A stretch of DNA of 63,218 nucleotides, filler included, from Kipferlia bialata (Eukaryota): assembly GCA_003568945.1 (NCBI GenBank). It is 5 parts of 5 records of this genome, joined end to end, with 100 filler letters (N's around TTAATTAATTAA, not from the genome) between each part and the next. Parts side by side here need not be neighbours in the genome. Positions count along the whole stretch, not along the records: positions 54,821 to 59,668 come from BDIP01000501.1; 4 more parts are not named here. One strand, written 5' to 3'. The translations under genes were made by a program, and so were the position numbers. The notes beneath the pieces are model-generated. The model did no database searches and was not told the origin of the DNA. It was given only the letters and a program-made list of their open reading frames with translations. How positions within the stretch are numbered: the first letter of the stretch is position 1; each line of letters opens with the position of its first letter. This document shows positions 704 to 62,348 of the stretch, in pieces.

Positions 704-803
704 AGCGGCTTGTACACTCGGGTGTGAAACTACAGTGCAGTACACACACTCTACTACTACTGTTACTCTCTCTCCCCCCCTCTCTCTCTCTCTGTCTCTT
801 TCT

Positions 804-3800: not shown

Positions 3801-6800
3801 AGGGCCCACACCTCCACTGTTGTCTCCCTCTCCCTGTCTCTCAATCACAGAGAATGCCCTCTCCAGTGGGAGCCACTGCTCCATGTAGAACCTGGTCTGG
3901 AGTTAGGGATNCCCTCTCCAGTGGGAGCCACTGCTCCATGTAGAACCTGGTCTGGAGTTAGGGATACACTACACATATGCATATACACATACAGAGAAAG
4001 TGTGTGCGTGTACCTCTGCATCTGAGTTGATGGCCTCCCTGGTTGGTCCTTCTGTCTCTCCACTCTGTCCATAGAACCTGTCTATCAGTATAAATATAGA
4101 TGGACACATATATAGATATATATTATATACATATCATATGGATACTGATACTGATTCTGATACTGATACCCATAGAACCTGTCTATATGTATATACCTAT
4201 CTATGTAGCTGCGCTCAGCTGCCTTGACATCGATGGTCATGCCCTGGGGTGAGGATACTTAAGCATAACTTAAGGATATGTAACTGAGAGACCAAGAAAG
4301 AGAGAGGTGCCAGGCAATCAAAACTCATGTACTGAAGATAGCAGATATAGTCTTGCTCATGCATGTCAATACCATATAATAGTATGGCTGTACCTCCAAT
4401 ATTGTACTTCCAAGTATTCTTGCTCACCTCCCCGAAGTTCCCTATCATAGCGTTCTTGATCATGTCTGTCCAGTTCATGGTCATGCCATCACGCCACACA
4501 TGCCTCTGGGCACTGGCCTGGTGGGGTAGAGGTACACTCTATACAGATGTATATATACCAATATGTATATACATAGAGAGAGAGAGAGAGAGAGAGATCA
4601 TGGCCATGCCACACATGGCGCTGGGCACTGGCCTGGGGGGTTAGAGTGTACATCATAATACTCACATTAATATATATGCATGTCTAAATATAGAATGCTA
4701 CTGTTATATTCAATACATCTAAAGAAAGGGCTTCACGCCACACATGCCTCTGGGCACTGGCCTGGGGGGTCAGCAGACGGCAAATGTACAGGCATGTATA
4801 TATATAAGGAGAGGTTATGTACTATATATATGGAGAGCTCATGGTCGTAATGCCACACATGCCACTAAGCACTGGCCTAGGGGCTAGGGAGGAGAATTGA
4901 ACACCGTACTATCGCAAACTGCCGATCTCTGTCCATTAACCTTTGGAAGCATTCATACCTGTCTGAAGTGGTCACTGACCATGGCGTAGATGCCCTGGGA
5001 GCCTGGGAGGGTCAGGTATTACGCGATAATGGGAAATACCATACGTTAACGCGAGATAGATATATGTATACTTTACCTGTTGTCTGGTAACAGAGGACGA
5101 AGAACAGTCTTGAGAGCAGGTCTGTGTTGAAGACCTTGAGTGACTCATATGCATTGAGGTAGAGTGTCTCTCTCTCTCCCTCTCTCTCCCCTTGAATGTG
5201 TGCGAGTGCCATCTCTCTCATGAGGGTGTAGGAGGCATCGGCCGCAGCTGAGATTAGATTCTATAATAGTGTATTACAACATATATATATAGGTTTTGTA
5301 ACTACTTTTCAATGAGTAGATACATGCTCTCTCATGAGGGAGTAGGAGGCATCGGCGGCAGCTGGGGTAAGCATTGCGAATATCACACATTTCTATAACA
5401 ATTACTGGACTATAGAGAGACAAATATATCGAGTATAGGAGGGTAGGAGGCGTCTGTGGTGGCTGGTGTAAACATAGGGTAAGAGACGCCATACAAAATT
5501 CATGTAAATAGAGATACACATATCCACACCTGGTATGTTTGTCATTGAATACATACAGTTCTAAATATATACTATATAAATACACACACATATATATATA
5601 TACACATACACCCATATCCACACCTGGTATGTTTGTCATTATAATAATATTATATTATATATATCTATATATATCGCCCTCACGCCTCTGCTCTGGGTGG
5701 AGTCACCTGGAGGGTTAGACTAATGAAGGATAATAAGAATAGATTCAGGATAATAATGGACAAATTGCCAGGGGTTGGAGGGAAGCATTTATATGCTCAA
5801 TTCACCACGATAACAACATATAAAGAAATGTATGCAGACATGTGTATGTGACTCTGGCTGGAGTCACCTGGGGTTAAGCTACTCAATAGAACAAAATATA
5901 CATATATCCACTCTGGAGGTAATGTATTAATAATGTAATAATCAAATACTTCATTCTCAGCAGTATTCCACTTGTCTCATACCTGTCCCGAAGCTAAATC
6001 CCTGATATATACGCTCCATTGTATCCCTGTCCCAATATGTATACTTATAATATACATATATACCTGTCCCAAAGCACGAGTTCAGGATGAGACTGAAGAG
6101 GGCAGCCCTGTCCAGCAGAGAGGGCACAATCTACGCGGTGAGTACACAACATACTACACGATGACGTAACACTGTGAAATGTGTCAATTCTACGCGACGT
6201 GTACCTTGAACACGCTGTACATCTCGTGTCTGGTGTATGGGCATCCAGTGAGAGAGGCAGATGGTAGGTCGGCTGGGGAGATGCCGCTCTCCCTCTCTCT
6301 CTCCTTCTCCCTCTCCCTCTCCATGTCTTGCTGGTGCAGTCTCCTGCCACCCTCCACAGAGTGCAACAGCCTGGGTGTAAAGATAGAGTAGCTAACAAAG
6401 CTTAATAATATGATGTGCATGTGATATAACAATATGTACATTGTGCCTTCTGCCACCTGTCCTGCCACCTGTGTATATAGTGTAAATATAGGAAAATACT
6501 TGTAAATACGCATCACTACCTTGACATGATTGAGTCTATGATCCCCCCCAGTCTTGTGTATGCCTCACATCCTGTGCCACACTCACTGGCACAGGCAGAC
6601 TGGACCTCCCTGGCAACCCTAGTGTTAAGGTATAGAGGGATAATAGGAGTATCTATTGCACAGGAGTTACCTTGGCAACCCTAGTGGTTAGAATGGAATG
6701 GAGTATACAACAATATAGCATTATCACTACTCTCATATTCAGAGGCACAGGCAGACTGGACCTCCCTGGCAACCCTAGTGTTAAGGTATATATACATATA

Positions 6801-8815
6801 CACGATATCTATATACATTTGTATATATATACACTGGTATACATGATATCTAGGGCACAGGCAGACTGGACCTCCCTGGCAACCCTGGTGGTAAGGTATA
6901 TACATATACACGATATAAATACACATATATAATTAGATGCACATATACACTGGTATAAATGATATCTAGGGTACATGCAGACTGGACCTCCCTGGCAACT
7001 CTGGGTGTAAGGCATATATATATATACGATTAACATATATATCAACAGTACATATGATCACTATAATCATATTAATGGCACAGGCAGACTGGACCTTGCA
7101 ACCCTAGGTGTATGATATATATGGCGAGGTATAGAGGAGAGATAAATACATACATATATACGATATATAAATATACGACTACCATCCTACCTGACCCCTG
7201 CACACAGCATAGTGGTGACACAAGTCAGTCTCTGCTGGCCATCGATGACCTGGGGGTAAGGGACTATAGGATAGGGTAAAGTTCTCAGTAAGAGTATTCA
7301 TGTATATGCGAGTATATATTTGGAATCAGATACACTCATACCTCCAGGGTGTTGATGCCCTCGTCTGATGTCCCGTCTGTCAGTCTCTCTCTCCCCCTGG
7401 CAGATTAGCACGATGGGAACATATTTATACATAGTATCATGACACTATTCTACGCCAATAGGGTCAATGTGAATCCGCTGACTTCAATTTTTACCTGTGC
7501 TATGCTCCCACATGGACGGATGTACAGTAGTATACATATATACAAATACATATGTATGTATATGTGACACTATCGAGAGCGTCTATATATAATACTAAGG
7601 TACCTGTACACGTGTATGCTTCCACATGGATGGGTGGTGCCCTGCCTGGTGCCTAGGATAAGAAGATGTGTATACATGGGTAAAGGTACAAAACATGAAG
7701 TACAAATTAGGGCTATCCACCTTGCTTGGCCACCTCTGACAGACGCTGCACGTCTCTAAAGTATATACATTAGATATATGAACAGAGTAAGTATATAGTA
7801 TAATACAATATAGTAGAGTACAGTATATATATATAAATATATATGTACCTTGCTTGGCCACCTCTGACAGATGCTGCACATCTCTTGAATAGATATATGA
7901 GATATACATACAGAGTCTACATAGAGTATATACAGTATGTATAGTATAGTAAATATTTACATATATACCTTGCTTGGCCACCTCTGACAGATGTTGCACA
8001 TCTCTAAAGAGTGTCTCCACATGTTTCTCAGTCCAGCAGAAGCGTCTGAAGGGGTGAGCAGCATCGTAGTATATACCGAAATGCAATATTTCACAATATT
8101 TGATATAATAAAATACGTTATGAGGAAGAGAGTCCAGCTGAAGCGTCTGGAGGGGTGATCATAAATGTGAGAGCTATACATATACGTTGAAGCGCCAAGA
8201 GGGATGGTATGTCATACTATATATATGACTACATATACAAGAGAGAGAGAGAGTGATATATACCTCTGGAACAGGGGAATGGTCACTGCCAGGGGTGCAG
8301 TGTCACAGGTGCCCTCAGGGAGTAGCTCGCCAAAGGTACACCTTGATTGTAAGCAGACAGATAGAGACAGACAGACATACAGACAGAGAGAGAGAGAGAA
8401 AAGGGGGGGGGAGGCATATATACAGGCATACAGACAGAGAGAGATGTGCTGTCAGGGAGTAGCTCGTCAAAGGCACACCTACGGAATAAGAGGTATATCG
8501 TTGGCATAAGAACAAAAATATTTATAACTGGGAGATAGAAACTATGTCAGTGATATGGAGTCGCTAATATGGGAAAGAATATGATAGGAGGGAGAGGGTG
8601 TGAATAATGGTGATAGACAAGGGGAGAGAATATAAAACTTTCAGGGGGGGTCCCATGAATATACAAAATGTATACTAACACACTATCTCCCTGTCTTTGT
8701 GATTGAGGAGAGGGGGGGGAATCACACCATACTCCTACCACCAATGCTATTATATATCCATACATATACCCTACCTCCCTGCCTCGACTGTGATGCGGTC
8801 AGGGTCATAGGGCAT
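804..8815 (-). CDS. DUF262 (GmrSD N-terminal, ParB/Srx-fold) domain protein, about 24 exons, no HNH/DUF1524 domain seen
   Basis: Hand-spliced GT-AG exons stay in frame from MPYDPDRITVEAGR (ATG 8815) to FDGTIHCSGKPSLPMDLVQ* (TAG 804-806). They carry the DUF262 motifs in order: IPLFQR-RFCWTEKHVETLFRDV (about 8280-8000), HPCGSIHVY (about 7620), LEVIDGQQRLT (about 7345-7225), IVPSLLDR, and GIYAMVS...RDGMTMNWTDMIKN (about 4990-4450). An upstream exon may exist, and one junction near 5550-5680 is less certain. Confidence 0.8.
973..1612 (-). repeat. Exon-edge echoes around the VPLFMGCVRISYPPGSEGSDSSR exon
   Basis: ACCCTTGAGCTGTCTGACCCCTCTGACC occurs at 973, 1073, 1193 and 1296. Acceptor-side copies lie at about 1468-1500 and 1579-1610. 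Confidence 0.9.
6588..7106 (-). repeat. Acceptor-edge echoes of the RVAREVQSAC exon
   Basis: GGCACAGGCAGACTGGACCTCCCTGGCAACCCT-like units occur at about 6588 (real exon), 6744, 6854, 6976 and 7077, with a short unit at 6670. Confidence 0.9.
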
Positions 8816-9131
8816 GGCTGGGGGTGAGACAGACAGAGAGAGAGAGAGAGAGAGGGAGAGAGGTGCGGTCAGGGTCATAGGGCATGGCTGGGGGTGAGGT
8901 ATAATGAATTGTAGTAAAGTATATGGGTATATGGGAATCTCTGTAGATAGGGAAACAGAAAGAGAGGGAGAGGTCAGGGTCATAGGGCATGGCTGGGGGT
9001 GAGGTATTGAATAGAATACAAAACACATTTACTATCAGCAGTAAGGGAATAATTGTATACAGGGAGAGAGACAGAGAGAGAGAGGTCAGGGTCATAGGGC
9101 ATGGCTGGCGGTGAGACAAAGGGAGAGAGAT

Positions 9132-9174
<43 letters not shown>

Positions 9175-9196
9175 GAGAGAGGGGGGGGGGGTATAC

Positions 9197-9962
9197 AGAG
9201 GAACTTGGTATCCATTACTATCAAACTAGAGTAATGTAGTCGTAGGGAGTAAAGTGAAGGGAGGGAAGAGAGGTATATACTCAGAGAAGGATATAATGGA
9301 TATAATATAGTATATGTGAGTACAATCCAGGACCAACCTGTCCGCCCACCCGTGCTCTGCCACCATGCTGGATATGTCAGGGTGCATGATACGCATCCCG
9401 GCAGAGGGTGCAAGGGCCCGGAGGGCAGATCTGGACTGAGACCAAAACGGTACCGGTACCGAACATGATACCCACAAATAACACATGCACACAATACATA
9501 CCTCTTTCCACCCCCGGCCACCCCCGAGAGGATGAGTATGGAGGGTCTCTCTGTCATCCAGGAGGTCAGACGGCTGAGGTGAGTGCAATGAGGGTGGCTA
9601 TGGGGTATTGGGATACAGACACTTGGGAATGATATTATTGCAAGAACCGACACTGGAGCTGTCCCCATATACTTATCATATTGCATACACTACCTCTTTG
9701 TCTTGTCTCTGATCATATCTAGGTTGGGTGCAAGGGTCATTGGGAATGGATATCGCTTCACACTGGTCTGTTTTCGCTGGAACCGGGGTCTCCTCAGGCT
9801 GTTCTGAGACATCTTCTGCGACGTGGCTTGACGCTGTGACGCCCGAGGAGGAGACACCGAGAGGGAGAGAGAGCTGGAGCTGGAGAGAGACAGAGTGGAC
9901 TGTTGGAAGGTCATCGTCTCACTGGACTGGGAGTCCTCAACCACGCGTCTGGACCGCTTCAT
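9197..9962 (-). CDS. P-loop NTPase N-terminal fragment, Rad17/clamp-loader AAA+-like (partial, or fused to the DUF262 gene)
   Basis: Exons 9962-9694, about 9573-9502 and about 9430-9337 splice in frame to ...KRYPFPMTLAPNLDMIRDKTKSRLTSWMTERPSILILSGVAGGGKRSALRALAPSAGMRIMH, a Walker A-like motif after a hydrophobic strand. A possible 29-nt exon at 9225-9197 adds SLIVMDTKFL. Confidence 0.5.
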
Positions 9963-10364: not shown

Positions 10365-13199
10365 CTACTTCCTGATGGCTGTGGGCTTCACCTTGTAGGA
10401 CATCTCCCACAGCTCTTCGGCGTCTGTGTCCTCTGCGGTGATGAAGTCACACAGCCTGGGGTGAGAGGGGGGGAGGGGAGGGAAAGACTACATAATATGG
10501 ATATATGGTCAGTGCATACACACCTAGGGTCCACCGTGTAGTGCACGGGCCTGAGCTGAGGGGCTAGGTACCCCAACACATGGGCGTATATCTGACAGCA
10601 CCGGGTGAAGTTGACCTAGAATGAGAGAGAGTTAGAAGAGTCTGTACAAACACATTTGTATAGTCTTCCCACCTGTCCGTGCTCCACCTTCTCGCTCCCC
10701 TCCTCAACCATGATCAGGTCCTTGCACGTCAGACCACTGTAGGGGACATAGGAGCCTGTGCCTGCAAAGGTGACCTCCTTCTGCACCACACCCTCGGCAG
10801 GGGGGTGGAGCAGGGCCACCATTGCCTTCCTGTATGCCGCATAGTTGTGCTCAATGTCGATGAAGGCAGCCAGGGCATCCAGGCTGCGCTGTGCCTTAGA
10901 GGTGACTGCAATGTCGCTGGACTGGATCAGACGCTTGACCTAGGGTGAGTGAGGGTATGAGGTCTAGAGCATAAATGAACCATAAAGATATACAGATGTA
11001 CAGATACATAGATTTGATATTATTGTCTTATCAAAGTGTACCTGTGGGCATCTGAGGCCACTGAACACTGCAAACAGGGCCTCGAACTGCCTCATGGCCT
11101 TGAGCTCACAGGCCACAGCCACAAAGTGGGAGAAGGCCTGGGACCGGTAGGAGCTGTCCTGGGGTTGGACTAGAGGGTATACATATACACATATACATAC
11201 ATGGGAGAGAGATGGAAGTAAGGCCGTACCTCCGATGTGATGAGCACCCTGGACACCCATGCGGATATGGAGTTGTGCCTCTGGATCAGTATGCGCACAT
11301 GGGGGCACAGGTGGTACTGGGACGCCTTGGTGAAGATCTGGTTCACTAGCTCTCTGGGGGTCAGATTGCAATGCAATAACAGACACACTTAACTGTCACA
11401 TACCCCTACTAAGAAGGTAACGTGCCATGTGCACCTCTTACATATACATATATACACATACATACCTAGGGTGTATGTGTGAGTATGCCTCGTGCAGGAT
11501 GTATCCGACGTGGTGTGCCAGGGTGGAGGGGGACAGACCCAGGAGCACATGGGAGGGAAGGTCCCTCTTGCTCCCTGGCGTCTCTCCCTCCTGTGTGGTC
11601 TCCTCGGGAGGCAGGATGGTGGTGACGGTATGGGGGGGAGTGAGGTGGTACCCCGTCTCCCTGTGCTCCCTCTCCCCGTCTCTCTCCCCCATCAGCTCCC
11701 TATACCTGCCGCCAACCTCGTCTATCTCAGCCACACCCAGACAGGCCAGGGCCGGCACAGAGGGTGCGTGTGGGTAGGGCGTCTCTATCTGCTGGGCTGG
11801 GAAGGGGTGGGGCTGGACACCAGGCAACACAATGGCGGTGGGCACACACATGGTGGGGAGGGTCGCCTCTGTAGCAGGGGAACCCTCCTCCCCTACCACA
11901 GTGGCTAAGGAGGCAGAGGGGGAGGCCGGGGTGACTGCTGGGGACGTGGCCCCTGGGTATGTGTCAGCCAGGGTGGCGTCCAGCCGCTCCATGTCTGACA
12001 GTATCAGCTCAGACAGAGACCCAAACACAGAGGTCGACAGGGACACAGCAAACTCAGCCACCTGCTCCAGGAGGGGCAGGGAGAAGTCATCAAAGTACGA
12101 TGTCAGCCACTTGTGCAGCAGCAGAATGACACACCGCTGCCTGGGCAGCTGCTGGTCCACCACGTAGCTCTGGCGCTCCATCTCGGACAGACCCTCGGGT
12201 ACGGGCAGGGCATACACGTCGAGTAGCTTCTCCAGCAGAGACTCAGCCGAGAGGTAGACTGGGTACACGAGGAGGAACACATTCTGGGTGTATGCACGGG
12301 CACTGAGAGTGAGAATCACAAAGAGATTCATAAATCCTCACTTATATGTCTATACTGATGACAAAATATATGGACTAACCTAGGCGTCTGCTTTGTGTCT
12401 GTCATTGTGAGGACTACCCTGTTGACATAGCATCTGCGGAGGATCCTTGGGTGAGGGATAAGTGAAGGAAGGGAAAGAGAGGTAGAGAGAGATCTGTGCA
12501 CCTGACTGACTCTGGCACTGGCATCCACCCCCCTGGGAGTGCAATGGCATTGCCCCAGTGGGTGTTGGCATCAGAGGCGGCGGGCTCTGCCATGACAGGC
12601 CTGGACAGGGCCACCTTCTTGGAGACAAACCCATCTGGGGGTGGAAGACACAAGAGAGAGAGACACTTTGCGGAGGGGGGGGAGGGGGGGGGGGCTTCAT
12701 TAGTAACAATAACACTGTACCTGTTCCTATGTGCTTCTTGAAGATTAGGAGCAGAGCATCGTCCTTGAACTCACATGCCCTGAGGTGGGAGAGAGGGTGC
12801 AAAGACAATCACAATAGTGCTGCACCTTGACACGCATACACCAGACATTGCCAAAGGTACGTGACAGATCATGTAACAGACACGTAACTACAAGGGTTGT
12901 GAGTGTATCTGAACAGCCAGTGTCTAGTATAGAAGGACGAAAGCTCAGACTGGATACCTCACGAGCTCCAACTTGTAGGGAGTGTCTCCAAGCTTGGCCA
13001 GACGGCCGAATGTGCGTGTGGCAAGGTCCTTGTACTGCACCATGTCATATCCAACAGGAACATCAAGCCTATAGGGCTCATAAGACTCAACCTGCACATA
13101 TAGAGCGAGTGTCTCGCTCTTAGGGGCTTCCTCAGCGATAGCCTTGGTCTCTGGGCCATCCTGCGACACTACTGGCACATCATCCTCGATTTCGGGCAT
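10365..13199 (-). CDS. Ras guanine-nucleotide exchange factor (REM + CDC25 domains)
   Basis: The spliced product has the REM signature VFLLVYPVYLSAESLLEKLLDVY...RCVILLLHKWLTSYFDDF. It also has CDC25 signatures LSPSTLAHHVGYILHEAYSHIHPREL, IQRHNSISAWVS, RQFEALFAVFSGL, VPYSGLTCKDLIMVEEG, VNFTR and LWEMSYKVKP. Stop at 10365-10367. Confidence 0.9.
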
Positions 13200-36463: not shown

Positions 36464-36707
36464 NNNNNNNNNNNNNNNNNNNNNNNNNNNNNNNNNNNNN
36501 NNNNNNNTTAATTAATTAANNNNNNNNNNNNNNNNNNNNNNNNNNNNNNNNNNNNNNNNNNNNATAATCGTTATTCTATATAGAATACGGCATTATTCTA
36601 TATTTTTGAAAGCCTATAATAGTGTAGTGTGTTTGATTGAATATATACTTATTATATTGTATATATATTCAATATTTTATTGTATATATATGTATCATTA
36701 ACCCCAG

Positions 36708-39700
36708 GTGTGCGGGTGCTGTCTTCCACAGGGTCAGTGATCAGATGAGGAGCACAGAGGTACGATGGATACTGTGTGTGATATATATATGGTATATTGT
36801 TATACAAGGCGCTGTATGTAATAAGGCTATATATATATATATATATATATAAGGTGACCAGATGAGGAGCACAGAGGTATGGCGCATACTGTATATGTTT
36901 TAATAGTAGTATTTATATAGTCGATATATAGCGCCTGATCTTCATCGAGAGATTGTATTCTTTTGGTCCATTGATGACTGTTCATATTCGTACATCACTC
37001 ATCTCTAATTGTCAGGGCCCCATGGACGATGACCTTACCCAGGACAGCTCCCTTATACTGTGGCACTTCTTGGGTATGTTCATATGTTAGAGTATATGTG
37101 TATATTCTATTATTATATATATACTATTAGTATTTCTATATACATGAATTAGCTCCATCATACTGTGACACTTCCTGGGTATGTGTGTGTTTGATACCAT
37201 ATATATACCATATATTCTTTATGTTACTGATAATCATTGTATATACTAACACTCAGGTCAGAGTGCCCGTGACGTGTGTGAGTCCTTGTATGAATGTATA
37301 ATGTAATGTATAATAGTGTATATGTATATATATATATGTGAATATATACACAGCCTTCTCACTCCCAGGCCAGAGTGCCCGTGACGTGTGTGTGTCCCTG
37401 TTGTCCAGGGGTGCAGACTCATTCATACCAGACAACGCAGGCCTCACACCTCGGTACGGGAGGGATTCATTTGCTTCGCATTTATGCTACATTACCTTCA
37501 ATTGATATATACAATTCAATGTTGGTACAGATACTGACTCCCAGTGACTATGTTGTCCTCTTCCTCAAGGGTCAGCGGCTTCTATCAGGACCAGACTTCG
37601 AAAACCAGGTATATATGCATGTATATATATCAAAGTATATATAGAGAGAGAGAAAGACAGAGAGAGGGGGGGGGGTATACGAGGATAGCGGTTCTTCTCC
37701 TCTTCTTACCCCCAGCCCATCCCCACTGCTGACAACGAGTACTCAACCGGACAAGAACAGTCAGGTAGTGAGTAGCATTACGTTCTAGTGATACCCCAAT
37801 AAGATGGTAGTTGTGTATTTGGAACATTCAGTTGAGTTTGTGTTTGTGTCAGTACCGGTGCCAATGTGTATACGGTATTTGTATACTGTGGGATATTTGT
37901 ACCTCAATATCACTCTATTAACGTTGTTGAACCTACTACTAGAGAGACGTACGCATTGTCTCCTTCCTCACCCCAGTCAACACTGAGGCCGTGCTAGTCA
38001 GACTGTACCCTCTGCTCCTGCAGCAGAAGGGGGCCAAGAAGACATTCAAGGCAGCCGTGACTCAGGTAGGCTTCTATAATAGTATATATTTGTATATATA
38101 TACAGAGAGAGAGAGATGACATTCAAGGCAGCTGGGACACATGTAATGCTGGATACATACATTACCCCAATATTCCAACACGTGTCTCACCCAGGCCTCC
38201 AAGTACCTCCCCCACCATGTCTCCACACAAATATTCATGCTCATTTACATATATGTACTATAATAGTATGTATAGTGTATCTATCTAAGTGAGACTNNNN
38301 NNNNNNNNNNNNNNNNNNNNNNNNNNNNNNNNNNNNNNNNNNNNNNNNNNNNNNNNNNNNNNNNNNNNNNNNNNNNNNNNNNNNNNNNNNNNNNNNNNNN
38401 NNNNNNNNNNNNNNNNNNNNNNNNNNNNNNNNNNNNNNNNNNNNNNNNNNNNNNNNNNNNNNNNNNNNNNNNNNNNNNNNNNNNNNNNNNNNNNNNNNNN
38501 NNNNNNNNNNNNNNNNNNNNNNNNNNNNNNNNNNNNNNNNNNNNNNNNNNNNNNNNNNNNNNNNNNNNNNNNNNNNNNNNNNNNNNNNNNNNNNNNNNNN
38601 NNNNNNNNNNNNNNNNNNNNNNNNNNNNNNNNNNNNNNNNNNNNNNNNNNNNNNNNNNNNNNNNNNNNNNNNNNNNNNNNNNNNNNNNNNNNNNNNNNNN
38701 NNNNNNNNNNNNNNNNNNNNNNNNNNNNNNNNNNNNNNNNNNNNNNNNNNNNNNNNNNNNNNNNNNNNNNNNNNNNNNNNNNNNNNNNNNNNNNNNNNNN
38801 NNNNNNNNNNNNNNNNNNNNNNNNNNNNNNNNNNNNNNNNNNNNNNNNNNNNNNNNNNNNNNNNNNNNNNNNNNNNNNNNNNNNNNNNNNNNNNNNNNNN
38901 NNNNNNNNNNNNNNNNNNNNNNNNNNNNNNNNNNNNNNNNNNNNNNNNNNNNNNNNNNNNNNNNNNNNNNNNNNNNNNNNNNNNNNNNNNNNNNNNNNNN
39001 NNNNNNNNNNNNNNNNNNNNNNNNNNNNNNNNNNNNNNNNNNNNNNNNNNNNNNNNNNNNNNNNNNNNNNNNNNNNNNNNNNNNNNNNNNNNNNNNNNNN
39101 NNNNNNNNNNNNNNNNNNNNNNNNNNNNNNNNNNNNNNNNNNNNNNNNNNNNNNNNNNNNNNNNNNNNNNNNNNNNNNNNNNNNNNNNNNNNTACCTGCT
39201 GCACCCAGCATATCGGGCATGGGGGCCGCATTCCCACAGGTACTAATGTATATATACATATATAGGTTCATACCAATATATATGTATATATATATATATG
39301 GTGTATGACCTACCTGCTGCATTTCTGCTTGATCTACCTGCTCTACCCAGCATATCGGGCATGGGGGCAGCATTCCCACAGGTATTAAGTATTGGACATT
39401 GATTATTAATTATTACACATAGTAGATTAGAGTTATGAACAGTAATAGAGTTACGATAGTTAGGTGTATGTGACTTGTTTGTTCCATCTTAGAATGAATC
39501 TTACAACAGGCCGGCCCAGATATCCGGTCCTGTCGGGAGCGCCTGATCCCCACCCCCGAGCCAGAGATGCTCAGCACACGCACACTCAGAGGTAGGGGTG
39601 TGTATGATTCGCAGACTGCTGACTATTCATCTTTCGTTACTCACTCAGTTTCCACGTTTGAAGTGTATTCTTCTATGTCATTGTAATCAATATATATATT

Positions 39701-42700
39701 TCTAAGACTCATAACCAGCTGCCCGTCCCATAGCCCCCCTATCCCCCGGTGCAGTGGCCACCATAGCCACATACAGAGTGCGGAGGCTGATGGCACTCCC
39801 TGATAGGTATATTGTGTATAGTATATATATATGTGTGTGTGTGTGTGTATATATGTGCCACCATAGCCACGTACAGGGTGCGGAGGCTGATGGCACTGCC
39901 AGACAGGTATAAATAGTATGTATATATATATAGTACACCCAGTATATATAGATATATGATGATTGTTGTGACTTATCGATCTTACCCTTTCAGGTTCTTC
40001 AAGCCGCCCCTGGTGTCTGACGACTCCGAGTCGGAGGGAGACAGCATATACAGTTCCTACGGCACTCCTTCTAGTCCATCCAGCACCTCTAGCACACCCA
40101 GGGGTGGGAGGGGTAGGAGAGGACCCAAGGGTAGAGCGGCCCTAGGCCTTTACGTGGACTCTGAGTTTGAAGGGGAGGGAGAGAGAGAGTTTGAGAGAGA
40201 GAGAGAGTCTGATGAGAGTGGTATTGATCGTCAGAAGAGGGACTCTGGAGTGAGGCTGCTGAGTGGAAAGGTAGGGGTTGTGTCCTCGTTTGGAACAGTG
40301 AACCTTTAACTACCATATCCTACGACATGGATACATCTCGAAATGTATAACAGCAGTGATGTAATGCTGGTATATGTATTATGACTAAGTATACTTGTCA
40401 CATACTTATGTGTAGGACAGACAGGCCAGACAGTCCAAGGACATCATGCGGAGGTTCACATCAAGGTATGTGTCTTGCCATAATCGTATTTCATCTCTTA
40501 GTGACTGCATTGTGTACCTTTCCATAATAGCATACCCACAAGCCATTCGTTAGGTCCCCAGCACACTCACTTCTATTGAATCATTGATAGTGTTAACCAC
40601 TACCCCCAGAATGATCTCTGCTGCGGGTACCCCTGTCCCTGAGAATGCCATTGCATCAGATAGTGAGCTGGAGGCTAGGGCATCCAGGTATATGGGACAT
40701 ATCATACACTATAGATTGATATGTATTTACATATATACGGGTATGTCATTGCATCGGACAGTGAGCTGGAGGCTAGGGCATCCAGGTATCATAGTGTCTG
40801 GAATTAGCCTCACTGTTGTTGATGACACTGAGGTCAACGCTGGGGTATTAGTGTGATGAGTGGTGATGTTTCCTATTCCCATTCCTGTAACTGTTCACTT
40901 ATACCCAGGGTCCGTCGTGCCGAGCTCTTTGCAGCCAAGGTCCGGAACCCAGGTAAAAGAGTACAAGGAGTTCCCATATGCACGTGTTTTTAAGAGTCTA
41001 CAGTGTTTACACTCCCTCACCCTCAGGCCTAGCCTTCTGGCCCCTGGCCCCCTCGTGCTCTCTCCCAGTGGCGGAAGGGTCTGATACACCATGCTTCAGA
41101 TACAGGGTGGGTGTATGTTAAATAGATATATACACATGTATATATATATATATATATTGTGTCTCTATATTCTCTGCCCGGGCTTCCTATACAGGGTGGG
41201 TGTACATTGTATTACCTGTCCAGTCGATATATCGGATACTGTATCACATACTCCTCTGACTGGTAGGTGCGTGGCTCCACCCTTGGTGAGCAGCTGTCCC
41301 ACCTCATGAGACCAGACGGAACAGCAACAGGTATATTTATATGTGTGTATACATGTATGTATCTGTATATATATAGTCCTGGTGGGTATAGTGTATATGG
41401 TGTCCCACCTGATGAGACCAGACGGAACAGCGACAGGTATATTTATATGGGTGTATACATGTATGTATTTGTATATATATAGTCCTGNCAGGTATATTTA
41501 TATGGGTGTATACATGTATGTATTTGTATATATATAGTCCTGGTGGGTATAGTGTATATGGTGTCCCACTTGATGAGACCAGACACAACAGTACCAGGAA
41601 TACACATATTACTTAACAACTGTATATGTCGGCAATATAGTACATAGAGTATTATGTATACTTGTCTGACCTCAGGATCCTTTGGTGTAGTTGGTGTTGG
41701 ATCAGCATTCTGTGGCAGAGACTTCAAGGATGGTGAGTGTCCATCATTTACCCTTGCTATATACCCTTGCTTCCGCCATTTACTTCACCAGTCAGAGAAT
41801 GAAGATATGTCACTCTACTTCGTTGCTCTCTCCAGGTCCTGAGGCTCTCTCTAGTTAGTGTGTAGGTTACAATTGTCATTATATATATCTTACCCCAGGC
41901 CCTGACGCTCTGTCCTGGGAGGACCTCCCCGATGATGGGTGGGCAGAGGCAGACATGGAGACGGAGAGAGAGAGAGAGAGGCAGCTGGAGGAGGAGGACG
42001 CCATGGAGAGCGAGCTCGAGCGGGAGATGGAGAGAGAGATGGAGAGGGAGATGTTAGGTGGTGATCTCGGGCTCGGTGGTGACGATATTGCCTCCAACCT
42101 AGCTGCTCTCGAGCACTTTGGGGCTGATATCACGGACTCTGAGCCAGAGACCCCAGAGGGTGCAGAGGGAGAGAGCGACACCAGCAGAGAGAGGGAGAGA
42201 GAGAGAGCTGCCTCCCATGAGAGGGAGAGAGAGAGAGAGAGTAGGGCAAGGGCGTCCAGTCTCGCCAGTGAGGGGGGCTACATGAGGGACCTGGCTGCTG
42301 AGACAGACAGTGTGTCCACTCTCACCATGGCACTCGGGAAGCTCTTAGGTACGCGTATATACATATACATGTGTGTATGTGTGTGTGGTTAATTGTTTGT
42401 GCATCTCCTGTATGTATGTTTCACTGTCTCTGATACCAGGCACCGCCTTCAATGTAGGTGGTCTCCGTGCTCCCTCCAACATACCCTCCGGCCACAGGCC
42501 CCCTGGGTCTCTATTCGACTCTCTGGCATACAGTCTGGCACCTATCAGGGGTGCCATTGGAGCCCTCTCCCCCTTTGTCCCCGTTCTCCCACCCCTGCCT
42601 TTCATAGAGGGCGACACTACCTCAGTCAACGAGGGGAGGGGAGGCAACGAAGGGAGTGAGAAGGAGGCGGATACATCTCCTGCGGACGAGGATGATGGGG

Positions 42701-54651: not shown

Positions 54652-54982
54652 GGTATGTGTGCAAGATTGATAGAAAATGAATCCCCCCCCCCCCCCCCCC
54701 CCCCCCCACCCCCACCCCCANNNNNNNNNNNNNNNNNNNNNNNNNNNNNNNNNNNNNNNNNNNNTTAATTAATTAANNNNNNNNNNNNNNNNNNNNNNNN
54801 NNNNNNNNNNNNNNNNNNNNCCAAAAAACCTGGGGTGTAAGGAGGGGCCCCCCCCCCCCCCCCCTTCCTTTGTATCTGGAAGAGTCTTTCCCTCAGGACC
54901 CACTCCACATCCTCTCCCTCAGTCTCTCTCTGAATATTCACTCAGTTAATTTACACCCTGTATACATGTTCTGATCCCCCAG

Positions 54983-55278
54983 GACCCACTCCACCTCCAC
55001 ACACAGACGGGACAACACACGGGGGACATCATCAGGTAGTCATACTATATATATATATATTCATTGTATGTCAGACTCTATGTGGCATGTGTAGTATTAT
55101 GTGTACATAGTGTATACCCAGACGGGACAACACACGGGGGACAGTATCAGGTATACACATTGAATATATTGTCTATCAGACTATAGTGGTACATAGTCAG
55201 TCTGGGTCTAGATTCTCTCTCAATGTATATATTGAGCGAGTTAACATTAGGCCTAGGTCGCACCTTCCAGATGAGTGC

Positions 55279-55317
<39 letters not shown>

Positions 55318-55627
55318 CTTTCTCTCGATTCATGTATATATATTTTAACATATAGGTCTTGGTCGCACCTTCCAGATGAGTGCCTGTGGCTCCTGAGGTT
55401 AGGAAGGGAGGGGTGTATACATCATAAGGAGTCATATAGGAGGTGTACCTTCTCTAGAGAGAGAGAAAGAGAGAGAGAGGCCCCACTGTGAAGATGATTG
55501 CTTCGTGATATTACATCCTTCCCTACTCTTCTCCTGTAAGAGGGAAGATAGAGAGAGAGAGCGTATCTGTGAGTGGTTGATGGTACATGGCCTAAACCCC
55601 TATTGTAGGGGAGCCTGTGCTGGACAC

Positions 55628-55658
<31 letters not shown>

Positions 55659-55726
55659 ATAGAGAGTTAATGAGTGTAATGAATAGAGTTCTGAAGCAAT
55701 GTAGGGGAGCCTGTGCTGGACACTAA
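54983..55726 (+). CDS. 3' fragment of an unknown gene with echo-rich introns
   Basis: The exons DPLHLHTQTGQHTGDII|RSWSHLPDECLWLL|RGACAGH each have partial duplicate copies. The reading frame is not certain. Confidence 0.35.
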
Positions 55727-56145
55727 AGGACAGTGTGTGTGTGTGTGTGTGTGAAAGAGAGAGACAATATAGAGAGAAGACATAGTTTGACACAGAATAG
55801 TATTGTTGGGAATACTGAGAGAGGGGAACCTGTGCTGCACACTCAGAGGGAGAGAGAAAGAGAGAGAGAGGGACAAGAACAGAGAGAATAGAGATGAGAC
55901 AGAAGAGTACTGTTTGGAATACAGAGTGTTTCAAGTATTACCGATATCAAGTTTCCCATTATCAAAGGTCATACTACTACCGGCATAGCATTGACATCCA
56001 GGCAGTGCTATCAGCTAATGGGTCCACCTATATACGACATTCATCATTTGTATGAACTCTAAGTTCTTTGTCATGACTTCTCTCTCTATTCACACAAAAG
56101 GGCACAGTAAATAATGAATGATGTTATATATATCAGTTGTCAGTC

Positions 56146-56190
<45 letters not shown>

Positions 56191-56191
<1 letters not shown>

Positions 56192-58710
56192 TAGTCCAGG
56201 ATATCCGTCACAGCAGCACTGAGGGTGCGCTGAAGTCCTGGAATAAGGGTCTAGCAGAGTAAGAAGGTCTCGCCAATACTATAATCTATATATATGCACA
56301 CTATATACCTGGCATTGATGTGAGTCTGGACACACTCCCAGGGTCAAGGAACTCAGCAACGCCTATGGGTGAATATAGGATGTGGAAGGGGAGAGGGATG
56401 CGGACAGAGGGGCAAATATCTAGAAGAGTAAAATAGTCCATATGCACACATATATTTACACTATGCACACTATATACCTAGTAACAACAGCACATCGTGT
56501 GTCATGGATGATATGGATGGACTCCACCCCCCACACACAGGGGCAGTCACTCTATATACATATTCATACTATATATATAATACACACATATATATGTACA
56601 GAATACATATATCTACCTAGTAACAGCAACACGTCATGAGTGAGTGAGGATATACTGGGACTCCACCCCCCACACACAGGGGCAGTCACATCTAGGACCT
56701 TCACCTGGGCCTGGGAATTAGTGGAGTAGCTATAGTAATAATATCATAATTATGGGTGTAGTGGAGGTATTAAGGGTTGAGTGAGTATATGTAGTACCTT
56801 GACTCCTAGTATTGGCTTCTTGAGCGAGTATCCGTACTGCTGCAGCATGTCTGTGTCCTTGGTGCAGGAGGGGGGGACAACATCGCCTATATATTAGAAT
56901 ATACCAAAGTGTAAAGTGTATACAGTATGTGTCCATAGTATATATGTTGGAGCATGTCTGTGNNNNNNNNNNNNNNNNNNNNNNNNNNNNNAGTATATAT
57001 GTTGGAGCATGTCTGTGTCCTTGGTGCAGGAGGGGGGGACAACATCGCCTTATGTTAGTATATATCAAAGTGTATAGTGTATACAGTATGTGTATCCATA
57101 GTATATATGTTGGAGCATGTCTGTGTCCTTGGTGCATGAGGGGGGCACTACATCGCCTGGTATTAGTATATATGCATAATATATACATGCATAATATATA
57201 CATGTATATGGTATACTATGTGTATGTGTATATGATTGAGGGTAAGTTAGTGTCCTTGGTGCAGGAGGGGGGCACAACATCACCTGGGTGTTAGTATACA
57301 TAGTATATAGAGTACATATACATGTATATATGTCGTATATATATGCAGCATGTCTGTGTCCTTGGTGCAGGAGGGGGGGACTACATCACCTGATGTATAA
57401 GTATATATGTATATATATACATGTATATATATGTGTATGGTATACTTAGTATATGTGTACATGATTGAGGGTATGTCTGTGTCATGGGTGGAACTACATA
57501 TGTGTATATACCTTCGTAGTTACTGCTACACCGCATGTTGCTACTGACTGTCTGCCTCTTGTCCATGTCTAGTATAGATATATCATATATAAATACTAAT
57601 GCCCATATATATAATTATATATACACATATGTGTACACTCATACCTTCATAATTGCTACTGCATCTCATGTTTGATGACACTGTCTGCCTCTTGTCCATG
57701 TCGAGTATGGGCAGATGAAGAATATATATATTGATATATAATAATACATACTGTATAGTATATACCTTCATAGTTACTGCTACAGCGCATGTTACTAGAC
57801 ACTGTCTGTCTCTTGTCCATGTCGAGTATATAGTCATGAGTATACAATCAGAATAGTACCTTCATAATTGCTACTGCATCTCATGTTGCTAGACACTGTC
57901 TGTCTCTTGTCCATGTCGAGTATGGGCAGGTGGGACCGGGTCAGATAGGGGTTGATACTACTGTTAGTAATAAATACATATAACTGTATATAATATATGA
58001 TATGCAGTAAATACAATATATAATAGTCCAGTATGGGCAGGTGGGACCGGGTCAGGTAGGGGTTGATACTACTGTTAGTAATGCATATATATATAATTGT
58101 AGATAATTCATAGTACGCAATATAGTATGTATAATCAATGTAGTATATACAGTATATATAGTATATTGTATAAATAATATATAGGGGTGATGCTGGAGTG
58201 AGCAACATTAAAAAATATATACATTTATACAAATGTATATAATAGAGAATATGCAAAATATAGTATGTATAATCAATGTAGTATATAGTATATAGTATGT
58301 ATAGTATATAGTGTGTAAAATCAATGTAGTAGTCTAGTATGGGCAGGTGGGATCGGGTCAGGTAGGGGGTGATGATACAGGTAAGACACGGAGATAATGT
58401 GAAGGATACACACGCAAAGTGAATATATATATATATACTTCACATATATAGAGAGAGAGGACTAACAATTACCTGAACACACTGTCCCCAGACAAGGTGC
58501 CCTTCCTAGTTACTAGGGACCTCTCCTGCACAAGAGTGGCACTGACTGACATTAGGGGGGTAGAGAGAGAGGAAGAGAGAGAGGGCTCTCCTGCACAAGA
58601 GGAATATGCATATATACTAACCTAGTTTCTCATCACTCTCCGTGTGTCTCCTTGTCTGCATCAGTGCACCTCTCTTCTGTAGCAAAGACATGGCTGGTAT
58701 TAGGGGTGTA

Positions 58711-58741
<31 letters not shown>

Positions 58742-59278
58742 TATACGGGAAAGAGACATGTCTGGGTGTTAAGGGTGTAGAGAGAGGGAGATAGTAACTG
58801 AGACTGCATTGTTGTCATAATCATATACATTGGTAGAGATATATAGATAGTCTATGGTACAAGGAAAGTATATATAGTTATGGACATGCAATACACACAT
58901 GCATACCTGACTCTAGCAATGGGTCGTTGGGGTCAGGTGTCTCCTTGTCATCTGGCACAGAGGCGCCCTTGGCAAAGGCTACGATAAGGGTATGAGAATA
59001 CGAAGATAGTACGTAGAATAGCATATACAGGTCCAAAAATGAAATGAAAAAACCTTCACAATAGTCCACTAGCAATGCCCCACTGCTGAGTAGTTCATAG
59101 ACCCAGGCATTGATGTCGTTGGCCAGGTACAGACCGCTGATGCCTGGGGTGAGTATATATATACTTACGTACACTTGTATATATGTATCTACATGACCAC
59201 ACATACCGGCTAATGGGTGTCTGGGCGATGCCCTCAAGAAGAGACTGTCCAGAAGGGAGGACTTGATATGCCTTGGGT

Positions 59279-59311
<33 letters not shown>

Positions 59312-59392
59312 GGAGGAGATACCACACAGAATTAACACTCACCGCATGTCCACCGACTCAAAGAGCTCTGCCCCCACTCTGCTGTGCCTGAC
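56191..59392 (-). CDS. Hypothetical multi-exon protein (5' partial) with heavily echo-filled introns
   Basis: In-frame exons: VRHSRVGAELFESVDM, GISGLYLANDINAWVYELLSSG, SINPYLTRSHLPILDMDKRQTVSSNMRCSSNYE, GDVVPPSCTKDTDMLQQYGYSLKKP, DVTAPVCGGWSPSISSLTHDVLLLL and GLQRTLSAAVTDILD*. Confidence 0.65.
56845..58365 (-). repeat. Stacked partial exon/splice-site duplications ('echoes')
   Basis: Five or more copies of the DVVPPSCTKDT acceptor edge, four copies of the ILDMDKRQTVSSNMRCSSNYEG donor edge and three copies of the PYLTRSHLPILD edge, separated by TA-rich spacers. Confidence 0.9.
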
Positions 59393-59824
59393 CTGGGGTG
59401 AATAAAGGGTGTAGGAGGATGGAATAAGGGTGTAGGAGGATGGATTATGGGTGTAGGAGGGTGAACAAAGGATGTAGCATGAATACAATATACTATATTG
59501 GGATGATGCATTTCTCTCTTTGTAGTAGGTAGTCTTCTTTACGGAGCGGGGTTATCTATAGAGTGATTGAATAGAATAAATGGTGAAATTGAAAACAATG
59601 TGGGGATATTCACACAAGAAGAACGTACCTTCCACCCCCTTCTGACCGTGGAGTCTCTATGTTTAAAGNNNNNNNNNNNNNNNNNNNNNNNNNNNNNNNN
59701 NNNNNNNNNNNNTTAATTAATTAANNNNNNNNNNNNNNNNNNNNNNNNNNNNNNNNNNNNNNNNNNNNGTTGGGGGGGGGGGGGGGGGGGGGGGGAGAGA
59801 TGAAAGAATCCAGTGGTAAGTCAC

Positions 59825-60311: not shown

Positions 60312-60544
60312 CTGTCAGAAGACGGTGCCGAGTGGTGTGGTGTATGGGGGACACTGGCTACTGAGAAGGCACTCAGAATATTCAATACAGAAACACCCGT
60401 AATATAATGCCACGCACACATTGCATATGACAGTTTCATTATTTTATGGACCATATGAAAAATAGTGAGAGGGGTTAGCCATACTCAACAGCTACCCTTC
60501 ATCCACACACCCGTCTCCAAGCAGTCCCCTCTCCAGATACACAA

Positions 60545-62066
60545 ATGGACTCAGTGTTTGGATTCCAGGGCGAAGGCTACGTGTGCCTTGCCGGGGATGC
60601 CCGTGCCATCAACTCTATCTTTGTGCTGAAGCAGCACCATGACAAGATTGTGCAGGTGTGTGTATGTGTGATATGTGGTATGGAGGTCTGGGTGGCTCGT
60701 TCTCCTGATGTATAGTGAGTAATGTAGAGTGTTCTACCTGTATAGAGGTGGGTCCTATATATGTGTTGCTTTTACGACTGTTTGGCGTATTCCGTGCTTA
60801 CCTTACTTCGAGTGGGATCATCATACTCTATGTATAGATTGATATGTGACAGCGTAGTGCGAGGGATAGGTGTTCGTCTGAGATAACCCACTGATGATGA
60901 CTGTTAGAGATGGTTGTGAAGTCGTTGTTGGGGTGCCAGTGTGTACAGTGAGGCGTATTGCCTTTGTTCTCCACACTCACTAAGTATGAGCATTATAGGT
61001 TCCTACTATTCCCATACAGTGCTCCTATACCACCTCACCCCCCCCCTCCCCCCCAACCCCCCACCCCAGGTGTCTGACCGTATGCTGCTGGCCATGGTGG
61101 GAGAGGCCGGAGACACAGAGCAGCTGAGCGAGTTCGTCAAGGTATGAGTGGTATATTAAAGCCACACGCAAGTATGAATGTATGTATTTTTTTATATACC
61201 TAAACATATACATGTAATTGTGTGTATACTATCTTAGGTGTATATATAAAGTACCCCTGACCCCAGGTCAACCTGCGCCTCCTCGAGCTGCGTCTGGGCC
61301 ACCTGTCCACACACATGGCCGCCAACTGGCTAAGGACAAAGATGGCAGAGAGCCTCAGGAAGAGCCCATACCAGGTGGGGTGTTGTGTGGATATGTATAT
61401 ATATAGTCATATTCAGTATACAATGGGGATATATATGTATTGACCCCCCCCCCAGTCAGTCAGTCGTTCCCTCTCTACACATGCCCCTCTCCCAACCCCT
61501 CAGGTGAACTGCCTTCTGGCCGGCATGGATGCCGAGACCCCCGCTCTGTACCACCTAGACTTCTACGGCACTCTGGCCAAGCTGTCCTTCGGTGCACACG
61601 GGTACTGCGGCCACTTCCTACTGTCCCTGTTTGACAAGCACTGGCACGAGGGCATGACGAAGGAGGAGGCGCTGCCTCTGGTGGAGCTGCTGGGGGGGGA
61701 GCTGAAGGGCAGGTTCCTGCTGCACCAGGTAGGGACAGGGTGTGTGATGTATATACACTGTTTGATACTGCTTGGCACTGACCCCAGGACACCTTCATTG
61801 TCAAGATCATCTCCACAGAGGGAGTCGAGACCCACGAGGTCAACATCAAGGGCCACCAGGTATAGAGACATGCCATATTATAGGGGATTGTGTACATGGC
61901 AGGTTCATAGAGGGGGTTGTGGTTAAGTAGTCTCCCTGTCTCTCTCTCTCCTCTCTCACCCTAGGACGTTGGGCGCCCCCCTGTGGCTGAGGAGCCAGTG
62001 GCTGAGGCTGAGGCAGAGACAGAGATGTCAGCCCAGAGGCCAGCCCTGACCATTCAGGCCGAGTAG
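60545..62066 (+). CDS. PSMB2: 20S proteasome subunit beta type-2 (beta4/PRE1), 6 exons
   Basis: Spliced sequence MDSVFGFQGEGYVCLAGD...SIFVLKQHHDKI...VGEAGDTEQLSEFVKVNLRL...AANWLR..MAESLRKSPYQVNCLLAG...LYHLDFYGTL...AHGYCGHFLLSLFDKHW...ELKGRF. Confidence 0.95.
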
Positions 62067-62348
62067 GAGGGGTATATTGAAATAGAAACACTTAGTTATG
62101 GTACTGATGGTTTGCATGGCTAATAGTAGCACACACACATCGAGTAATCACAGCCGATCTATTATGCACATATCACACAGAGACCTAGGGAACACATACC
62201 CAGGCCTATACACTAACCACAACGAGAGTAACAAAGAGCAGCCCCCTTCTCCAAAAGGGGGGAGGGAACAACATAAGGAACAGGTGACACAAGAACACTC
62301 ACAGATCCAGCTGGTATAAGGCAGGTGGCCCAAGCATCGCTAGTACGG

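What the first reader, a model, noticed from the sequence alone, without database searches (positions are those of the whole stretch)
56845..57395. Acceptor-side echoes of the GDVVPPSCTKDTDML exon, also purely synonymous
Seen: four clear upstream copies of acceptor plus exon start (about 57005, 57113, 57250 and 57345), and one cut by Ns. They vary GGC/GGT, GTT/GTA, GTC/GTG, TCC/TCA, CTG/CTC and CAG/CAA without changing residues, then break off into TA-rich sequence. Most keep a branch-like CTAAC/CTAAT and an AG. Inference: the spliceosome must skip several intact 3' splice sites, which implies strict exon definition or frequent unproductive splicing.
Basis: partly seen in the sequence, partly recalled or inferred. 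Interest (0 to 1): 0.75.

Follow-up and report, generated by a model that had tools for sequence, protein, structure and literature searches.

The report
Intronic exon echoes refreshed by alleles
In a protist gene, introns hold truncated copies of neighbouring exons that the assembled transcripts skip yet that still spell the same amino acids, likely because recombination keeps overwriting them with working exons from other, very divergent versions of the gene.

Summary
Real. A 973-nt intron (56887-57859, minus strand) of a gene whose protein matches a Kipferlia bialata entry holds four acceptor-plus-exon-start copies, three donor-side copies and one decayed copy; the fifth, N-cut copy is probably a scaffold overlap. 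Spliced contigs join the outermost sites and skip all copies. Across the gene 32 of 34 distinct codon changes are silent (0.39 expected if only the live exon were protected; P 2e-11). A second haplotype differs at about 9% of exon letters but 1 of 252 residues, and that residue sits in one echo. Copies are mosaics and their spacers have diverged 7-23%. Best reading: tandem duplications that keep one splice site are tolerated, then likely overwritten by out-of-register recombination with live exons of divergent alleles. Unproductive splicing cannot explain the silence; exon-definition-like pairing has modest support. A second echo-rich gene in the window fits the ordinary one-sided model (25 of 50 silent). 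The scan noted similar echoes in a sea urchin (e1-9861148), there with only ordinary silent bias.

The parts
56191..59668 (-). Host gene, 5' end cut by the contig end; 11 modelled exons from 59392 on; protein of no known family
   Evidence: Exon model reproduces P0001; no Pfam family
56798..56886 (-). Live exon GDVVPP...LGVK, acceptor TAG with CTAAT
   Evidence: X2 contig 11, 0 other letters
56887..57859 (-). 973-nt GT-AG intron holding the echoes
   Evidence: Joint 56885>57859, CT..AC, cut +1
57344..57391 (-). Acceptor echo A1 (CAG|GT; CTTAT upstream)
57250..57295 (-). Acceptor echo A2 (CTAAC...CAG|GT); a second-haplotype DNA contig fits best here
   Evidence: joint 57295>57504
57108..57158 (-). 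Acceptor echo A3 (CTAAT...CAG)
57000..57050 (-). Acceptor echo A4 (CTAAC...AAG); first 14 codons identical to the live exon, end like A3
56937..56991 (-). Partial fifth copy and N gap; probably scaffold overlap of A4's end
   Evidence: 26-nt identical run on both sides of the gap
57470..57499 (-). Decayed echo A0 with a 10-nt deletion, sharing its downstream spacer with A2
   Evidence: p 0.007; spacer alignment
57512..57575 (-). Donor echo D4 (10 silent, 0 replacement); second-haplotype transcript fits best here, 4 other letters in 65
57645..57717 (-). Donor echo D3 (4 silent, 0 replacement)
57766..57829 (-). Donor echo D2 (6 silent, 0 replacement)
57860..57957 (-). Live upstream exon INPYL...NYE; second AG of a CAGTAG acceptor is used
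58026..58071 (-). Acceptor echo of the upstream exon (2 silent)
58332..58373 (-). Older echo of the upstream exon start (3 silent, 1 replacement at its edge)
56478..56550 (-). Donor echo of the next exon; 9 silent changes and one Leu>Met, the residue that P0002 has
56617..56710 (-). Live next exon AQVKV...LLL (annotated; its 3' junction was not seen in RNA contigs for this haplotype)

Best explanation
The echoes are truncated intronic copies of an exon start that the assembled transcripts skip, and they likely stay silent because out-of-register recombination keeps overwriting them with live exon sequence from divergent alleles of the same gene. Steps: (1) shown: each unit is intron end + AG + exon start + spacer, with two shared breakpoints, so the array grew by tandem duplication; (2) shown for the major transcripts: splicing joins the outermost donor and acceptor; inferred: only duplicates with one splice site survive, because sites are paired across a complete exon; (3) shown: a second haplotype exists with many silent and almost no replacement differences; (4) inferred: a homolog's live exon pairs with an echo as readily as with the live exon, so conversion or unequal exchange writes protein-preserving sequence into echoes faster than they decay; copies that miss this decay, as A0 did; (5) speculative: Dmc1-only, mismatch-tolerant recombination in fornicates favours this.
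For: 32 of 34 distinct codon changes in 10 echoes are silent; pS 0.335, pN 0.005; expected share 0.24 (neutral) or 0.39 (only live exon protected), P 2e-11. P0001 and P0002 differ at 1 of 252 residues, Leu>Met, and echo 56478-56550 has that Met. Second haplotype in both DNA (depth 427) and RNA contigs: 8 other letters in 89 of the live exon, the 5 listed all silent third positions, about the same silent distance as echo to live exon. A DNA contig at depth 410 joins a D4-like donor through 30 unrelated letters to an A2-like acceptor, i.e. probably the other haplotype's short, echo-free intron. Codons 197, 199 and 200 give all three conflicting 2|2 splits among live, A1, A2, A3; independent mutation on a tree gave this in 0.0004-0.03 of runs over 15 settings. 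Homologous spacers differ at 7-23% of aligned sites with 2-6 gap runs while the adjoining echoes have no replacement. 0 of 36 echoes scored in two genes span both ends of their exon. Fornicata lack Rad51A and NHEJ and keep two Dmc1 paralogs (PMC8516963, passages); Dmc1 stabilises mismatched triplets (PMC6719624, abstract).
Against: Recombination itself was not observed; only two haplotypes of one sample are seen, and the second only as difference tables, not as sequence. It may be a paralog or homeolog. It is not identical to any echo (4 other letters against D4, 8 against the 56478 echo), so further unseen alleles are required. In gene P0004 of the same window 25 of 50 distinct changes are silent, which fits the ordinary one-sided model (0.41, P 0.12), so strong purity is shown for one gene only; with a lax alignment penalty the focal gene falls to 33 of 40 and P0004 to 34 of 108. 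TA-rich spacers may mutate faster than echoes. The three-split test was chosen after seeing the pattern. Why a protein with no detected relatives is so constrained is unexplained.
Confidence: 0.58

Rival explanations
1. One-off capture: each echo was copied once from a different allele during break repair (one-sided invasion, microhomology join) and is simply young; there is no continuing refresh.
For: Same allele-like silent pattern and the shared Met; D4 and A2 resemble the second haplotype's donor and acceptor; spacer divergence could be allelic divergence.
Against: A1, A3 and A4 end at one shared CA|TATATA breakpoint with homologous spacers, and A0 and A2 share another, so the truncations are few and older than the copies; A4 is live-like in front and A3-like behind.
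Confidence: 0.2
2. Echoes are themselves under selection because they are sometimes spliced in or used in nested or recursive splicing and translated.
For: Echo sites score as well as or better than live ones; A1 and A2 begin AG|GT and could act as ratchet points; D4 to A1 is a normal-sized 122-nt intron.
Against: Spliced contigs show only the two outermost-type forms (rare forms would be lost). Read-through from echo acceptors stops after 19-36 codons, so no full-length protein would select on them. Nested or recursive removal would not translate them.
Confidence: 0.1
3. Plain tandem duplicates decaying neutrally while only the live exon is protected (the reading given for sea urchin echoes in e1-9861148).
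For: Fits gene P0004 in this window (25 of 50 silent) and the decayed A0.
Against: Predicts 0.39 silent; the focal gene has 32 of 34, and echoes differ from each other only silently.
Confidence: 0.05
4. Assembly artefact: pieces of two haplotypes strung in tandem.
For: Second haplotype exists; the N-gap copy is probably an overlap.
Against: A separately assembled contig spans 57107-57371 without a difference; other contigs span 57441-57671 and 56663-56870; copies show three or more states per codon, more than two haplotypes give.
Confidence: 0.05

Closest known systems
Intron gain by tandem genomic duplication (PMC3443670, passages read; PMC3265369, listing only)
   Same: A tandem duplication inside a gene is removed by splicing, leaving the protein unchanged and exon-like sequence in an intron.
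   Different: There an exonic AGGT segment is duplicated and makes a new intron; here an existing junction is duplicated, no intron is gained, arrays build up, and the intronic part stays silent instead of decaying.
Gene conversion among paralogs or from silent cassettes (e.g. vls, pilS, chicken Ig pseudogenes; recalled, not from a call)
   Same: Partial, untranslated copies beside a live gene exchange sequence with it and become mosaics.
   Different: Inferred flow is from live alleles into dead copies, the variation is silent, and no programmed function is evident.
Mutually exclusive tandem exons (e.g. Dscam; recalled)
   Same: Tandem exon-like copies with protein-preserving divergence.
   Different: Echoes lack one splice site and are truncated; none is seen in transcripts.
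Sea urchin exon-junction echoes, scan note e1-9861148 (AI note, not checked)
   Same: Many short tandem copies of exon-intron junctions in introns.
   Different: There 43 of 107 differences were silent, as one-sided selection predicts; here 32 of 34, with a second haplotype as a likely source.

Membership tests
Mutually exclusive / cassette tandem exons | Each copy has its own acceptor and donor | tested here: not met
   0 of 36 echoes span both exon ends; 1 of 5 focal acceptor echoes has a downstream G|GT(A/G), 144 nt away
Mutually exclusive / cassette tandem exons | Copies appear in spliced transcripts | tested here: inconclusive
   Not in the contigs shown, but contigs drop rare forms
Intron gain by tandem genomic duplication | Direct repeat created by tandem duplication within the gene | tested here: met
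   Shared breakpoints and homologous spacers
Intron gain by tandem genomic duplication | New intron bounded by a duplicated exonic AGGT | tested here: not met
   Splicing uses the pre-existing junction, which the second haplotype's transcript also has
Gene-conversion-maintained copies (concerted or mosaic evolution) | Phylogenetically incompatible sites among copies | tested here: met
   All three splits at codons 197, 199, 200; 0.0004-0.03 under independent mutation; post hoc
Gene-conversion-maintained copies (concerted or mosaic evolution) | Donor sequence identified for a tract | tested here: inconclusive
   Shared Met and best fit of second-haplotype contigs to D4 and A2, but no exact donor
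Gene-conversion-maintained copies (concerted or mosaic evolution) | Conversion events seen in pedigrees or populations | not testable with these tools
   One sample only
Recursive splicing | AG|GT ratchet points used, shown by lariats or saw-tooth reads | not testable with these tools
   A1 and A2 have AG|GT; only contigs were available
Exon definition | Acceptor use depends on a downstream donor across the exon | tested here: inconclusive
   Correlative: 3 of 20 against 7.8 expected; 9 of 31 live exons hold an unused internal GGT(A/G)

The most novel reading that the evidence does not exclude
Introns of this fornicate act as an archive of the population's alleles: mismatch-tolerant, Dmc1-only recombination that can pair mainly through exons writes patches of other individuals' live exons into skipped intronic echoes genome-wide, so one diploid genome records three or more coexisting alleles and thus genetic exchange in a group where sex has not been observed, while short-intron splicing copes by pairing sites across exons.
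Probability: 0.33. Interest if true: 0.82.

Novelty: new variant of a known kind. Interest (0 to 1): 0.63.

Why it matters
Silent-only divergence is normally taken as proof that a sequence is translated; here skipped intronic DNA shows it, so recombination with live alleles can fake purifying selection. [quoted passage not shown] The arrays are also natural tests of splice-site choice in a reduced spliceosome (87 of 174 proteins found, PMC6679479, passages): strong inner sites are ignored in favour of weaker outer ones. The two haplotypes also appear as two separate annotated genes, so gene counts for the species may be inflated.

Tried and rejected
No whole genome is held, so no genome-wide count and no second-haplotype DNA. 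Reads were laid on 54830-58270 only; exons upstream of that were not checked in RNA, and only contigs, no raw reads, were available. No RNA holder on record was listed; X2 is a guessed RNA run, treated as RNA because its contigs join across GT..AG ends. Function of the protein: no Pfam family, no solved relative below E 0.8, no Atlas hit, single-sequence model unusable (pLDDT 36), so no fold search was run. Allele test in other genes failed: the search from the first exon at 9696-9962 found nothing, the hit for P0004 has a one-member cluster, and the 42.4-kb exon gave only two weak hits, E 1.6e-9 and 9.4e-4, over short stretches. Best-frame test of 25 echo families outside the focal gene: 50 of 86 silent against 0.35 by simulation; above neutral but not compared with the one-sided model, so not used as support. 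The perfect 54-nt duplicate at 3857-3965 was left out of all counts as an overlap artefact; two offsets (X7, G116) aligned only 5-7 nt and are not among the 36 echoes. Strictly nested pairing from the inside out was rejected as a complete account: three donor echoes cannot pair off four acceptor echoes. Literature: nine searches listed no paper that by title or abstract start describes such echoes; the library lacks most subscription papers. Supplements were not read; Supplementary Data 2 of PMC8516963 bears on this species' own repair genes.

Full report
What is there. The window is intron-rich eukaryotic DNA in several pieces. The finding lies in a minus-strand gene (56191 to beyond 59668). 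A search with one exon found P0001, named by its source as a Kipferlia bialata hypothetical protein; an 11-exon model from the window reproduces it. The exon that begins GDVVPP runs 56886-56798. Upstream, in a 973-nt intron, lie four copies of its acceptor and first 34-49 nt (A1 57389, A2 57283, A3 57156, A4 57048), three copies of the previous exon's last 64-73 nt with its GT (D2-D4), and a decayed copy A0 near 57470-57499. Three more echoes lie in neighbouring introns. The copy beside the N gap is doubtful: 26 identical letters flank the gap.

Is it real? One X1 contig covers 57107-57371 without a difference at depth 404, and others cover 57441-57671 and 56663-56870. X1 may be the window's own source, so this guards against mis-assembly, not against sample error; no piece spans the whole array.

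Is the silence more than chance? In A1-A4, 12 of 12 codon differences from the live exon are silent. To avoid choosing ends by peptide match I redefined them by nucleotides alone: over 10 echoes of the gene, 32 of 34 distinct codon changes are silent, pS 0.335 and pN 0.005. Neutral change predicts 0.24. The stricter null, taken from an earlier scan note on sea urchin echoes, is that only the live exon is protected; it predicts 0.39 and is rejected at P 2e-11 (33 of 40, P 2e-8, with the laxest ends). The same test on the echo-rich gene P0004 (GmrSD N-terminal domain) gives 25 of 50 and does not reject that null (P 0.12). So echoes are common in the window, but near-pure silence is shown for this gene only.

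Are they spliced in? X2 contig 11 joins 57860 to 56886 with no other letter in either exon, skipping all copies. In the plus-strand neighbour a contig joins 55033 to 55354 across two more echoes. Contigs drop rare forms, so minor use is open. For the next intron only the second-haplotype path was seen. The live acceptor scores lowest in a matrix from 30 window acceptors (-1.0 against 2.8-9.8) and the live donor lower than D2-D4 in one from 22 donors (5.9 against 9.9-11.1); 4 and 12 of 34 sites were dropped for off-by-one coordinates. Site strength therefore does not explain the choice. All 32 modelled live donors are G|GT; 3 of 20 echo acceptors have G|GT(A/G) before the next acceptor, against 7.8 in shuffles (P 0.004); none of 36 echoes spans both exon ends. 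This fits pairing across exons and loss of complete duplicates, but is correlative: 9 of 31 live exons hold an unused internal GGT(A/G). Read-through from the echo acceptors stops after 19-36 codons, so translation is an unlikely source of selection.

A second haplotype. P0001's cluster holds P0002 from another contig; they differ at 1 of 252 residues, Leu to Met. That Met is present in the echo at 56478-56550, its only replacement among 10 changed codons. RNA contig 12 differs from the live exon at 8 of 89 letters; the five listed are silent third positions and also occur in a DNA contig at depth 427. That is about 0.3-0.4 per silent site, close to the echo-to-live distance. A DNA contig at depth 410 joins sequence fitting D4 through 30 unrelated letters to sequence fitting A2 and its acceptor; I read it as the other haplotype's roughly 49-nt intron without echoes, though an inner echo pair is possible. 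K-mer peaks suggested diploidy for the species (PMC5874029, passages). Allele, homeolog and paralog cannot be told apart here. The second haplotype equals no echo exactly (4 of 65 and 8 of 74 letters differ), and several codons show three or more states among copies, so more than two versions of the live exon seem to have contributed.

History of the array. A1, A3 and A4 end at one breakpoint with homologous spacers; A0 and A2 share another. Spacer pairs differ at 7, 10, 17 and 23% of aligned sites with 2-6 gap runs, while the echoes beside them have no replacement, though TA-rich DNA may mutate faster. Codons 197, 199 and 200 support three different trees for live, A1, A2 and A3; independent mutation gave that in 0.0004-0.03 of simulated cases (post hoc). 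A4 is identical to the live exon for 14 codons and then matches A3. A0 shows what happens without renewal.

Mechanism. Short tandem duplications that cross one exon-intron junction leave one whole exon and an orphan site, and are tolerated (inferred). Because haplotypes agree best in exons and differ in echo number, a homolog's live exon can pair with an echo, and conversion or unequal exchange then writes in sequence that selection has already filtered (inferred). This predicts silent-only mosaics at allele-level distance in a strongly constrained gene and a weaker bias in a less constrained one, as seen. Fornicata lack Rad51A and NHEJ and keep two Dmc1 paralogs (PMC8516963, passages), and Dmc1 stabilises mismatched triplets (PMC6719624, abstract); a link to the echoes is speculation. 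One-off capture from alleles is the nearest rival and shares most of the evidence.

Comparison and verdict. It resembles intron gain by tandem duplication (PMC3443670, passages) but gains no intron; it resembles conversion among partial copies (recalled) but with silent flow into dead DNA; it is not a set of alternative exons by anatomy. Nine paper searches listed no description of it, in a library that lacks most subscription journals. The parts are known, the combination is unusual and testable: new variant of a known kind, interest 0.63.

Noticed in passing
window 800-9900 (minus): Gene matching P0004 (GmrSD N-terminal domain) has about 26 echoes; silent share 25 of 50, but one echo at 2660-2686 has 5 silent and 0 replacement changes in 9 codons.
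   Followed up: partly
window 36700-41600 (plus): Another echo-rich gene; the echo at 39857-39911 has five differences, all in one codon position.
   Followed up: partly
window 54830-55622 (plus): Neighbouring gene with donor and acceptor echoes (55116-55169, 55241-55287) that an RNA contig skips.
   Followed up: partly
window 10500-18200 and 60540-62070: No near repeats were found here by the scan; the second stretch holds a proteasome subunit gene. Echoes cluster in genes with TA-rich introns.
   Followed up: no
window 3857-3965, 41488, 56963-56991: Perfect or near-perfect duplicates around Ns, probably scaffold overlaps.
   Followed up: partly
window 57958-57963: Tandem CAGTAG acceptor; the RNA contig and P0001 use the second AG.
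   Followed up: yes
window 57645-57829 and 56478-56550: Three serine switches between TCN and AGY codons among echoes against one amino-acid replacement; two lie in a Ser-Ser pair and may come from codon slippage.
   Followed up: no
P0001 / P0002: A protein with no detected relatives shows 1 replacement in 252 residues between haplotypes whose exon letters differ by 6-9%; the two are annotated as separate genes.
   Followed up: partly
window 56766-56803: The second haplotype shows no listed difference over the first 31 nt of this intron while the exon beside it differs at many silent sites, like a conversion tract running from exon into intron (unlisted differences are possible).
   Followed up: no
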